Below, piece by piece: positions 15,701-18,700 of a stretch of 64,000 nt of DNA. The position numbers and the translations under genes were made by a program. The stretch lies in NCBI RefSeq assembly GCF_009914755.1, contig NC_060939.1. The stretch is one strand, 5' to 3'. How positions within the stretch are numbered: position 1 is the stretch's first letter; every line of letters begins with the position of its first letter. Under the pieces are notes generated by a model, which worked only from the letters and a program-made list of their open reading frames with translations, did no database searches and was not told the origin of the DNA. Source of the DNA: the human T2T-CHM13v2.0 reference genome, Homo sapiens.

Positions 15701-18700
15701 CCCAGGCCAGCTGGAGGTGATCTTGGACCGGCGGCTGATGCAGGATGACAACCGGGGCCTAGGCCAAGGGCTCAAGGACAACAAGAGAACCTGCAACCGT
15801 TTCCGCCTCCTGCTAGAGCGGCGAACCGTGGGCAGTGAGGTAACATCTGGGGCTGACGCCCAGGGAGCCAGGTCTGGCTAGTCCCTGGGGGTGGCCGGGG
15901 GGTCCAGCCTAGGGCTCGAGGAGCGTAGTTGGAGGTGGGCAAGAGAGAGAGAGTAGGGCTGAATTCCTGGGGTGGGGGGAGGCAGTCTGGCGTTTTGTGT
16001 CCCATCTCACGCAGCCTGGCACCTTCCTCTCCCAGCAGCGCTCTGTCACCTGTGCCCCTCATGTTCGTCTCCCACTTTCCTCTGTGCTGCCCTCCTCTGC
16101 CCTGTCCCAGCATTCTCTAAGCCTGTGCTCCAACCCCGCTCATCTCATGGCTTTCTTTGCCCCACCAGCCTGACTTTTTCTCCAAACTGGCAGCCATGTT
16201 TAGGGGCTTGATCTTTCACAGCAGCAGGAGCGGTAACCGAGAGGTAAGGGTCGGCTCTGGGAGCGGGGAACTAGTACGAGCAAGGTGTAGCTGCGCCAGA
16301 GCCCAGGTGACAGAGCCCGCCACTCAGTCACTCGTGCATCAGATAGATATTGAGCACCTGCTTTACTGTGAGGACCCAGAGGGACATAAGTGCAGACAGT
16401 GCTGACTCTCCCAGGAGTTTACTCGTGAGTAGGGGTGGCAGAGAAGCCATGTGTGTAAAAATGCAAGGTAGAAAGGGCTTTGTCTCACTGATCCTGAGGA
16501 GCAAGGTAATAATGTGGGCTAAGGAGATCGAGGTCAAGGAGGTGTCACCCAGGTGTGGCTTTGATGAATGGGGTGTGATTTGAAGATATGAACCAGGGCA
16601 CAGGATAGGAGGCAGGAAAGACAACAGGCTGGGGAATAGCAGTGAGTTCCTTAGTTATGCTGGAGCTATGCTATCCAGTACGGTGGCCAGTAGCCCTATA
16701 TGGCTATTTAAATTACAACTAAATCAAGTAAAAAATTTGCTTTCTTATTCCTACTGACCACACTTCAAGTACTCAAGTGGCTAAGTGGCTGCCGTATTAG
16801 ACCATGTGGTGTCGGATATTTCCATCCTTGCAGAATGCCCTCTTGGCTGGTGCTGGGCTAGAGTGCTAGGGGGAGATCAGGGCAGACGGCAGAGCACCTT
16901 GAGTGCCTGCTAAGGGATCTGGACTTTATCCTGGCTAGGAAAGGTCCAGGCTAAGGAAAGAGCTGAGCAAGGAGGGACACCGTCAGAACTCTGGTCTCAG
17001 CATGTCACGCTGACAGTACGGAGCAGGTTGGATCTGTGGGAAGGGAGACTGGAGGAGGGTGACAGCGGGAGGCTGTTCAGGCAGGACATGCTGGCTGCTT
17101 GAACTAGGCCAGAGGCTGGAGAAGTTGCCGGTGGCTATGAGGACACTGCCCAGGTGCGACGGAAGAGGGTTTAGCATTACCTGGGAATGCAGAGGGAAGT
17201 GAGAGATGCTGGGCGCTTGGAAGAAGGGGGATGCCAGGGACAGAAGTCCAGAATATTCAGCCCAGGCCTGTGAGTCTGACGTCCAGGTGAGCTGCTAAGG
17301 AGTAGCCCTGCTGGCAGAGCCCCGGCCGCGCTGGGCCTGAGAGCCAGGCTGGCACTGTGGATGTGGCATCGCTCGTGAAGCCGCAGATTACCCAGAGCAC
17401 TCTGGATTGGAGGTCCGTGCTCCATGGTGAGGCCTGCGTCTGCCTGGCTGCCATCCTCCCTGCACTGTGGATCCATGTGTGAGGGGAGACATGGCTGATG
17501 GGAGTGGGTTGCTCATGATAGTGTTATGTGAGCAAGGAACTAAAAAGTAGAGAAGAAACAGCTTAGTGAAGTAGCCCTCTGCGTTAGGGGAGACGGCAAA
17601 TGTCCACACTTGAAGGGTTAGCGGAACCTCGCCTGGAGCCAGGCGTGCCCTTGAGTCCAGGCACACCAGGAAAGGTCTTTCCAAAACAACTGACCTGGGT
17701 GTGCTTTTATCCTGCCTCGTCCTCTCCCCTCAGCCTGGCTTTGGTCCCTCACCAATATCTCGGGTCAATTTTGCAGGTCCAAGATAGCCACTCTACCAGC
17801 TACCCATCCCTCCTCAGCCACCTGACCTCCATGTACCTGAACGCCCCGGCGCTCGCTCTGCCTGTAGCCAGGATGCAGCTCCCAGGCCCTGGTCTGCGCT
17901 CATTTCATCCTCTGGCTTCCTCACTGCCCTGTGACTTCCACCTGCTCAACCTACGTACGCTCCAGGCTGAGGTGAGTGTCCCTCAGCGTGACATGCTGAG
18001 AGCAGAGTTCTGATGGTGTCCCTCCCTGCTCAGCTCCTTCCTTAGCCTCCAGGATGAGGTCCAGACCCCTTAGCAGGTATTCGGCTCCAAACCTCCAGGA
18101 CCAGGTTTTGGCCTTTCCTTACCCACACGCCTCCCTGTGCCAGCACTGCCTCTGGGCAGAGGCGCTGCTGCATCTCCGATCTCTGAAAGCCCTGCGCCCA
18201 CTTCCCTGGGCACTGTCTGTCATCCAGGAGGACACCCTACCCTCGGCGGAGACCGCACTCATCTTACACCGCAAGGGTTTTGACTGCGGCCTGGAGGCCA
18301 AGAACTTGGGCTTCAACTGCACCACAAGCCAAGGCAAGGTGAGTAGGGTGGGGAAACAGAGCACCTAGGAATGGCAGGCATGAGCTTGGTAAGACTGGGC
18401 TGAGATTCGGTGACAGGCTGGGAGAAGAAAGTGTCACTCCAGGGCTTTCTGGAGAGAAGGGGGGAAGCTGTAGACATGTTTTCAGAGCTCCGGAGGCCTG
18501 GCAGGGGGAGTTCCAGACAAGGTAGATCGCTTGAGAACTTTTGTTCCCTGAGCAGGGACCTCTATCAAGCAAAGTGGAAAACACCAGAAATAGAAAACCA
18601 GAACCCATCCTGTTGTTACTTTGTAAGCTCATATCAGCCGGCACTGATAAATGTCCCCGGGTGCCAGGTCCTCTGCTGGGCTCCAGTGTTTCAGAAGTGA

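What the first reader, a model, noticed from the sequence alone, without database searches (positions are those of the whole stretch)
16901..18082. ~100-bp non-Alu inverted repeat that brackets a MAN2A2 coding exon
Seen: 17983-18082 is the reverse complement of 16901-17013, apart from a 13-nt bulge (CTAGGAAAGGTCC) and 9 substitutions. In the sense pre-mRNA, 5 of these are G-U wobbles, 3 are A-C mismatches and 1 is G-G. The right arm starts only 12 nt into the intron after exon 17777-17971 (195 nt, frame-preserving). The left arm sits in ancient L2-like DNA, yet the arms are ~91% identical, more than expected for two independent L2 copies. Inference: a local inverted duplication or a selected RNA duplex that loops out the exon. 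It could drive skipping or back-splicing (circRNA), provide ADAR sites at the A-C pairs, or couple to the cassette exon at 16169.
Basis: partly seen in the sequence, partly recalled or inferred. Interest (0 to 1): 0.7.

Follow-up and report, generated by a model that had tools for sequence, protein, structure and literature searches.

The report
Inverted intronic duplication bracketing MAN2A2 exon
About 100 bases of an old decayed repeat in one MAN2A2 intron were copied backwards into the next intron, so the pre-mRNA can fold into a long duplex around one coding exon, but nothing yet shows that this does anything.

Summary
16901-17013 and the reverse complement of 17983-18082 match at 91 of 100 aligned bases, with one 13-nt indel. 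They bracket the 195-nt, phase-0 exon 17777-17971.

The predicted sense RNA duplex is -188 kcal/mol (z = -21.6 against shuffles). It dominates the fold of the whole 1.2-1.4 kb stretch.

The pair comes from a local inverted duplication, not two independent repeat insertions:
- Each arm is the other's only match in the whole genome.
- The arms share 33 differences from the consensus of their ancient repeat family and differ from each other at only 9 sites.
- The left arm lies inside a longer family copy (16876-17032) that runs past both arm ends.
- The right arm is an isolated fragment and carries the deletion.

The 9 differences look neutral: 5 G-U against 3 A-C, and 5 left-derived against 3 right-derived. 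Divergence dates the copy to about 22-98 Myr depending on the rate, probably within primates.

Function (exon loop-out, circRNA, ADAR editing) could not be tested here, and searches found no paper reporting it for MAN2A2. I read it as a new member of a known kind: an exon-flanking intronic inverted repeat of unusual, non-Alu origin. Interest is moderate to low.

The parts
16876..17032 (+). Decayed copy of an ancient interspersed repeat family (L2-like by recall). It holds the left arm and runs past both of its ends.
   Evidence: The family profile built from genome copies aligns here with E 7.3e-9, 29.5 bits. The outer flank adds 10.7 bits and the inner flank 4.2 bits; 0 of 100 shuffled flanks reach either value.
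16901..17013 (+). Left arm, the source copy of the inverted repeat (113 nt).
   Evidence: Identity to the family consensus inside the arm is 66 of 111.
16935..16947 (+). 13 nt present in the left arm only. It would be a bulge in the RNA duplex. It is ancestral, and the right arm carries the deletion.
   Evidence: The left arm keeps the family's length at this point, while the right arm shows an 11-column gap against the family profile (alignments).
17777..17971 (+). MAN2A2 coding exon enclosed by the arms (195 nt, 65 codons, phase 0).
   Evidence: A paralogous exon lies on contig C5 (55% identity, E 5.9e-11), so the exon is far older than the repeat.
17972..17982 (+). 11-nt spacer between the 5' splice site and the right arm.
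   Evidence: Predicted pairing of the splice-site bases is not clearly changed by the presence of the left arm.
17983..18082 (-). Right arm, an isolated reverse-complement copy of the left arm (100 nt).
   Evidence: The family profile hit is weak (E 0.014) and is confined to the arm. Its flanks add nothing: 30 of 100 and 54 of 100 shuffled flanks do as well.
17976..17984 (+). 9-mer GTGTCCCTC across the inner junction of the right arm. It repeats an arm-internal 9-mer at 18016-18024 (also at 16972-16980 on the - strand). It may be a microhomology footprint of the copying event.
   Evidence: 4 matches in the window against 0.81 expected. Three of the four lie in this locus.

Best explanation
Shown: a stretch of about 113 nt from an already decayed, ancient L2-like repeat in the intron upstream of exon 17777-17971 was copied in reverse orientation into the short downstream intron, 11 nt past the 5' splice site. 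The left arm is the source and the right arm is the copy, which later lost 13 nt. Inferred: the event was a replication or repair accident of the template-switch / templated-insertion kind, probably in the primate lineage. Since then both arms have drifted neutrally. As a physical by-product the MAN2A2 pre-mRNA can form a duplex of about 100 bp (66 bp at 94% plus 34 bp at 85%, with one 13-nt bulge) that loops out 763 nt of intron, the exon and 11 nt more. That duplex is long enough to be an ADAR substrate. It resembles the flanking complementary sequences that favour back-splicing or exon skipping. I expect at most low-level editing, circRNA or skipping, and no selected function.
For: 1. Each arm is the other's only match in the 3.1-Gb genome, with queries of 131 and 381 nt at E up to 10. 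The same holds within the window.
2. The arms belong to an old repeat family. The 13-mer motif occurs 273 times against 70 for the control. Of 90 sampled loci, 52 have 3 or more in-register partners, and 56 are hit by the iterated profile.
3. Of 100 aligned arm columns, 57 match the family consensus in both arms, 33 are shared departures from it, and only 9 differ between the arms.
4. Independent family copies are 50% identical at the median and 70% at most over 456 pairs. The arms are 91% identical.
5. Family homology continues past both ends of the left arm (0 of 100 shuffles reach the score) but not past the right arm (30 and 54 of 100).
6. The 13-nt indel is a deletion in the right arm.
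7. The enclosed exon predates the repeat, since a paralogous exon lies on C5. A complete reverse-oriented element could therefore not have inserted across it. The paralogue's locus has no arms.
8. The drift looks neutral: 5 G-U against 3 A-C (p = 0.73), and 5 left-derived, 3 right-derived and 1 unresolved changes.
9. The duplex is predicted to form: -188.3 kcal/mol, z = -21.6. The arms pair in the MFE and centroid of the 1221-nt fold. 90 of 100 right-arm bases pair with the left arm at P > 0.9.
10. Template switching is a described way of making new inverted copies of nearby sequence in human DNA (PMC5453318 and PMC9435742, passages read).
Against: - No other mammalian genome could be consulted, so the age and lineage of the copy are inferred from divergence alone. 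K2P is 0.098, which gives 22-98 Myr for rates of 2.2e-9 to 0.5e-9 per site per year (the rates are recalled).
- 8 of the 9 differences are transitions. That is somewhat more than a 2:1 expectation (p = 0.14) and is what mild selection for pairing geometry could also give.
- The placement is striking. The copy lies 11 nt from a splice site, and the two arms enclose exactly one frame-preserving exon.
- The family consensus came from copies chosen for an exact 13-mer of the left arm, so those columns are ascertained. Leaving them out gives 33 shared departures of 79 columns.
- The junctions show no clean microhomology, apart from the 9-mer at the inner junction.
- No RNA data of any kind were available.
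Confidence: 0.65

Rival explanations
1. A selected RNA duplex. The arms are kept complementary because the loop-out regulates MAN2A2 splicing: in-frame skipping of 65 codons, a 195-nt single-exon circRNA, or editing-dependent control.
For: The duplex is very stable and dominates the predicted ensemble. It encloses exactly one frame-preserving exon and lies 11 nt from its 5' splice site. Published work reports that exons looped out by complementary regions are included less, more so for stabler structures (PMC8052449 and PMC10573301, passages read). Inverted non-Alu repeats (MIRs) have been shown to drive back-splicing (PMC7371899, passages read). 8 of the 9 differences are transitions.
Against: The differences do not favour pairing (5 G-U against 3 A-C, p = 0.73), and both arms changed. 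A 13-nt deletion was tolerated. The antisense duplex is nearly as stable (-179.1 against -188.3). The exon has a consensus 5' splice site (GAG|GTGAGT) and belongs to the selected RefSeq transcript in the hub's gene table (supplied with the finding, not from a call). No paper in the searched library links MAN2A2 to a circRNA, editing or skipping of this exon. The divergence fits neutral decay of a copy tens of Myr old.
Confidence: 0.12
2. An older pair of inverted copies (two elements, or an ancient duplication) whose central 100 nt has been kept alike by gene conversion.
For: Inverted repeats 1 kb apart can in principle exchange sequence. An early Alu-contaminated profile aligned the right side out to 18127.
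Against: With the cleaned profile, the right flanks score no better than shuffled sequence (30 of 100 and 54 of 100), so there is no older, more diverged homology around the right arm. Sensitive blastn found no homology outside the arms. The tract is short, and its edge at 17983 is sharp.
Confidence: 0.06
3. Two independent insertions of the same ancient repeat in opposite orientations that happen to be similar.
For: Both arms match the same family profile.
Against: The arms share 33 departures from the family consensus and differ at 9 sites. All 456 pairs of independent copies are 70% identical or less. A reverse-oriented element reaching its own 3' end would have to run through the much older exon.
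Confidence: 0.02

Closest known systems
Flanking complementary sequences that promote exon circularisation (inverted Alu pairs; inverted MIR pairs at ciRS-7/CDR1as, circCDK8 and circSPNS1; PMC7371899, passages read)
   Same: Reverse-complementary, repeat-derived sequences sit in the two introns flanking an exon. The predicted pairing across the exon is stable and has no competing partner nearby. The repeat is not an Alu.
   Different: The arms are not two separate insertions of a family. They are one old fragment and its local inverted copy, so they are far more alike (91%) than independent old repeats (70% or less). No back-splice product is known. The downstream intron is only 256 nt and the would-be circle only 195 nt.
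Exon loop-outs by pairs of conserved complementary regions (PCCRs; PMC8052449 and PMC10573301, passages read)
   Same: An intronic duplex encloses a cassette-sized exon. In those catalogues, stabler loop-outs go with lower exon inclusion.
   Different: PCCRs are defined by evolutionary conservation, and the catalogue excluded RepeatMasker-annotated sequence. [quoted passage not shown] This pair is probably young and repeat-derived, and it is about -188 kcal/mol. The two validated PCCRs mentioned in the passages read are far weaker; the CASK one is -21.6 kcal/mol.
Short-range template-switch mutations that create new inverted repeats (PMC5453318, PMC9435742; passages read)
   Same: A reverse-complement copy of nearby sequence on the same chromosome creates a potential RNA hairpin without selection.
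   Different: The described events usually span tens to hundreds of bp, and the copied pieces are mostly short; the longest reported were 90-125 bp, with one of 318 bp. Here the copy is about 113 nt and lies about 1 kb from its source, at or beyond the upper end of that range. The mechanism is inferred here, not shown.
Long intronic dsRNA edited by ADAR (mostly inverted Alu pairs; from my own knowledge, no paper read)
   Same: A near-perfect intramolecular duplex of 66 + 34 bp with about 1 kb between the arms. Two of the three A-C mismatches (16959, 16970) sit in an A-A-G context, which by recall suits ADAR.
   Different: It is not an Alu, and no editing data could be consulted.

Membership tests
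Exon-flanking inverted repeat of the circRNA-promoting kind | Reverse-complementary sequences in the introns on both sides of the exon | tested here: met
   Arms at 16901-17013 and 17983-18082 flank exon 17777-17971.
Exon-flanking inverted repeat of the circRNA-promoting kind | Pairing across the exon is favoured over pairing within one intron | tested here: met
   Neither arm has another partner in the window. 90 of 100 right-arm bases pair with the left arm at P > 0.9 in the 1378-nt ensemble.
Exon-flanking inverted repeat of the circRNA-promoting kind | A back-splice junction is observed and depends on the repeats | not testable with these tools
   No RNA-seq or circRNA database was available. 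'circMAN2A2' and 'circ-MAN2A2' each occur in 0 papers, and all 8 papers holding 'MAN2A2' plus 'circRNA' looked irrelevant by title or abstract; passages were read in 4 of them.
Conserved complementary regions (PCCR) looping out an exon | Both regions conserved across species, with compensatory changes | not testable with these tools
   No other vertebrate genome is held. Divergence suggests a copy 22-98 Myr old. The within-genome substitution pattern shows no pairing bias.
ADAR-edited intronic dsRNA | An intramolecular duplex tens of bp long | tested here: met
   66 bp at 94% plus 34 bp at 85%, -188.3 kcal/mol.
ADAR-edited intronic dsRNA | A-to-G differences between RNA and DNA in the arms | not testable with these tools
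   No editing database was available. All 3 papers holding 'MAN2A2' plus 'RNA editing' looked irrelevant by title or abstract.
LINE-2 (L2) derived sequence | Significant match to the family's consensus or profile | tested here: inconclusive
   There is a significant match to a profile I built from genome copies of an old, high-copy family (left arm E 7.3e-9, right arm E 0.014). That this family is L2 is recalled, because no Dfam or Repbase library was available.
Local inverted duplication (template switch / templated insertion) | The two copies share derived states that independent family members lack | tested here: met
   33 shared departures against 9 differences. The arms are 91% identical, against 70% or less for 456 family pairs.
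Local inverted duplication (template switch / templated insertion) | One copy sits in its original context and the other is an isolated fragment | tested here: met
   Flank-extension test: left flanks 0 of 100 and 0 of 100 shuffles; right flanks 30 of 100 and 54 of 100.
Local inverted duplication (template switch / templated insertion) | The copy is absent from outgroup genomes | not testable with these tools
   No outgroup genomes are held.

The most novel reading that the evidence does not exclude
A primate-specific accident of DNA copying created, in one step, a duplex of about 100 bp that loops out a constitutive, frame-preserving MAN2A2 exon. It now acts as a switch. When the duplex forms, before the upstream intron is removed, the exon is skipped (giving an enzyme lacking 65 residues) or is released as a 195-nt circle. 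ADAR editing or dsRNA helicases set how often this happens. It would be a dated, single-event example of a regulatory RNA structure born from template switching.
Probability: 0.07. Interest if true: 0.65.

Novelty: new member of a known kind. Interest (0 to 1): 0.33.

Why it matters
Exon-flanking inverted repeats are the main known cis-element for circRNA formation and one route to exon skipping. In humans nearly all studied cases are pairs of independent Alu (or MIR) insertions. This pair has a different origin: a single local inverted copy of decayed repeat DNA, giving arms far more alike than independent old repeats can be. If outgroup genomes confirm a recent origin, the locus is a clean natural before-and-after experiment. 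The same gene, with and without a 100-bp loop-out duplex, could be compared across primates for exon inclusion, circRNA and editing. If nothing differs, it is a useful negative example showing that even a -188 kcal/mol loop-out need not affect a strong constitutive exon. It also shows that catalogues which mask repeats (PMC8052449) will miss such structures.

Tried and rejected
- Direct similarity search for other family copies failed. blastn of the left region against the first 30 motif loci gave one weak hit. Single-sequence nhmmer against 90 loci gave one hit at E 0.0095 for the left region and none for the right. A family profile was needed.
- The first profile (12 members) was contaminated by Alu sequence in the flanks. 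It mainly found the window's Alus, and its apparent extension of the right-arm hit to 18127 did not survive Alu masking.
- Scoring the flanks alone against the profile gave no hits at all, and the script failed. An arm-anchored extension test with shuffled flanks replaced it.
- Rfam found nothing at the arms. Its 4 sub-threshold matches all lie in the Alu at 18833-19120.
- Pfam found no family for the exon's 65 residues or for the next exon's 37 residues on their own. A first attempt failed on a wrong frame for a third exon.
- The paralogous locus on C5 has no counterpart of the arms: only 18-19-nt hits at E 0.043 or worse, and no profile hit.
- In the thermodynamic model, pairing of the 5' splice site is not clearly changed by the presence of the left arm, so I make no claim of splice-site occlusion.
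- The paper reader closed, before the supplements of PMC10573301 (RIC-seq-supported loop-outs) could be searched. Those files could bear on whether this duplex is seen in cells.

Full report
**1. The observation.**
The sequence and the repeat finder show two collinear inverted blocks:
- 16948-17013 with 17983-18048: 66 nt, 94% complementary.
- 16901-16934 with 18049-18082: 34 nt, 85% complementary.

They are separated by 13 nt (16935-16947) found only on the left. A global alignment of the left arm with the reverse complement of the right arm has 91 matches in 100 aligned columns. A strict local alignment ends at 16906/18077, and the last 5 nt match at 3 of 5.

The enclosed exon 17777-17971 is 195 nt and phase 0. 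Its 5' splice site is GAG|GTGAGT, and the right arm begins at intron position +12. The flanking introns are 1937 and 256 nt.

**2. More than chance, and predicted to fold.**
- The sense duplex is -188.3 kcal/mol. 300 dinucleotide shuffles of the right arm gave a mean of -62.3, sd 5.8 and a best of -79.8, so z = -21.6.
- The antisense duplex is -179.1 kcal/mol.
- In a fold of 16880-18100 (1221 nt) the arms pair with each other in both the minimum-energy and the centroid structure.
- In the partition function of 16850-18227, 90 of 113 left-arm bases and 90 of 100 right-arm bases pair with the other arm at P > 0.9.
- The predicted pairing of the splice-site bases is not clearly different with and without the left arm.
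- Within the whole window, 181 inverted pairs of 50 nt or more lie within 5 kb of each other. The 25 longest shown are 164-298 nt at 76-90% complementarity. Many of them coincide with the Alu-like hits. This pair is shorter but more complementary than any of those 25.

**3. What the arms are.**
- A search of the 3.1-Gb genome with 131 nt and with 381 nt of the left region returned only the query itself and the right arm, at E up to 10. That tool warns that its sensitivity to old repeats is limited.
- Sensitive blastn within the window gave the same result; every other hit had E of 0.22 or worse.
- Rfam has nothing at the arms.
- To find the family, I searched the genome for a 13-mer of the left arm. 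It occurs 273 times, against 70 for the reversed control.
- I fetched 90 of those places and masked Alu sequence in 30 of them. 52 of the 90 have three or more in-register partners at roughly 60-80% identity.
- A profile built from 40 members was iterated four times. It recruits 57 hits in 56 of the 90 loci.
- In the window that profile hits only two places: 16876-17032 (E 7.3e-9) and 18077-17998 on the other strand (E 0.014).
- So both arms derive from one ancient, high-copy interspersed family. That name is recall only, because no repeat library was available.

**4. Source and copy.**
Four results show that the left arm is the original and the right arm its copy.
- *Shared history.* Against the family consensus, the 100 aligned arm columns split as follows: 57 where both arms equal the consensus, 33 where both arms share the same departure, 3 where only the right differs, 5 where only the left differs, 1 unresolved, and 1 without a consensus column. 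The two arms were therefore one sequence for most of the element's decay. The JC distance of the shared part is 0.50-0.61, against 0.049 per arm since the split.
- *Independent copies are much less alike.* Over the same columns, with the ascertained motif left out, independent copies are 50% identical at the median and 70% at most in 456 pairs. Two separate insertions cannot explain 91%.
- *Flanks.* Adding the real outer and inner flanks to the left arm raises its profile score from 15.0 bits to 25.7 and 19.2 bits. 0 of 100 shuffled flanks do as well in either case. For the right arm the flanks add nothing: 30 of 100 and 54 of 100 shuffles do as well.
- *The indel.* At the 13-nt site the left arm keeps the family's length, and the right arm has a gap.

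In addition, the enclosed exon has a paralogous exon on contig C5 (55% identity over 62 residues, E 5.9e-11). It is therefore much older than the repeat. A reverse-oriented element extending to its own 3' end would have had to run through it. The paralogue's locus has no trace of the arms.

**5. Mechanism and age (inferred).**
A reverse-complement copy of about 113 nt placed about 1 kb from its source is what replication template switching or templated repair synthesis produces. Such events are documented in human genomes. They are usually within tens to hundreds of bp, and the copied pieces are mostly shorter, with the longest reported at 90-125 bp and one of 318 bp (PMC5453318 and PMC9435742, passages read). 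This case sits at or beyond the upper end of that range.

One possible footprint is the 9-mer GTGTCCCTC. It lies across the inner junction (17976-17984) and repeats an arm-internal 9-mer (18016-18024). The window holds 4 copies against 0.81 expected, and three of the four are in this locus. I could not turn this into a unique switch model.

The arms differ by K2P 0.098. That gives 22, 33, 49 or 98 Myr for rates of 2.2, 1.5, 1.0 or 0.5e-9 per site per year (the rates are recalled). My best guess is an event within primates.

**6. Selection?**
Nothing in this one genome points to it.
- Transitions that keep a wobble pair (5) are not significantly commoner than those that break pairing (3); p = 0.73.
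- Changes fell on both arms: 5 left, 3 right.
- 8 transitions of 9 is only mildly above a 2:1 expectation (p = 0.14).
- A 13-nt deletion was tolerated.
- The sense duplex is only 9 kcal/mol better than the antisense one.

**7. What it may do.**
By analogy only.
- Flanking complementary sequences promote back-splicing, including non-Alu MIR pairs at ciRS-7, circCDK8 and circSPNS1 (PMC7371899, passages read).
- Exons looped out by complementary regions are included less often, more so for stabler structures. Disrupt-and-restore minigene tests exist for CASK (PMC8052449 and PMC10573301, passages read).
[quoted passage not shown] Its silence is therefore uninformative.
- A duplex of 66 + 34 bp is long enough for ADAR. 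Two of the three A-C mismatches (16959, 16970) sit in an A-A-G context (the ADAR preference is recalled).
- Against a strong effect: the exon has a consensus 5' splice site and belongs to the selected RefSeq transcript in the hub's gene table (supplied with the finding, not from a call).
- No paper in the searched library links MAN2A2 with a circRNA ('circMAN2A2' 0 papers, 'circ-MAN2A2' 0 papers). All 8 papers holding 'MAN2A2' plus 'circRNA' looked irrelevant by title or abstract, and I read passages in 4 of them. The 3 papers with 'RNA editing' and the 4 with 'exon skipping' looked irrelevant by title or abstract.
- The paper reader closed, before the supplements of the RIC-seq study could be searched.

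**8. Verdict.**
The feature is real, and its origin is now reasonably clear. It is a local inverted duplication of decayed repeat DNA that happens to bracket a coding exon. It is a new member of a known kind, an exon-flanking intronic inverted repeat, and its single-event origin is uncommon. Its function is untested. I put about 0.12 on a selected or clearly measurable splicing role, and more on passive low-level editing or circRNA. Outgroup genomes and junction-read look-ups would settle most of what remains open.

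Noticed in passing
window 17976-17984, 18016-18024, 16972-16980 (-): The 9-mer GTGTCCCTC lies across the inner junction of the right arm, right after the 5' splice site, and repeats a 9-mer inside both arms. The window holds 4 copies against 0.81 expected. It may be a microhomology footprint of the duplication.
   Followed up: partly
window 18833-19128: An Alu in the next MAN2A2 intron (18339-19217) gives sub-threshold Rfam matches to Metazoa_SRP, mir-1268 and mir-3135. 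It forms a 214-nt, 86% complementary inverted pair with an Alu in the 3' UTR at 21215-21428.
   Followed up: no
window 18041-18068 and 18275-18302: Part of the right arm is 75% complementary over 28 nt to the following coding exon (pair I3). It is weak and probably chance, but it would compete with the long duplex.
   Followed up: no
L024 and L025 (G000 contig C1, about 77 kb apart, opposite strands): Two of the sampled motif loci are 99.7% identical over the full 600 nt compared. This is a recent inverted segmental duplication on contig C1, unrelated to this finding.
   Followed up: no
window 22245-30260: A dense cluster of Alu copies in both orientations lies downstream of MAN2A2. It forms many of the 25 longest inverted pairs listed for the window.
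   Followed up: no
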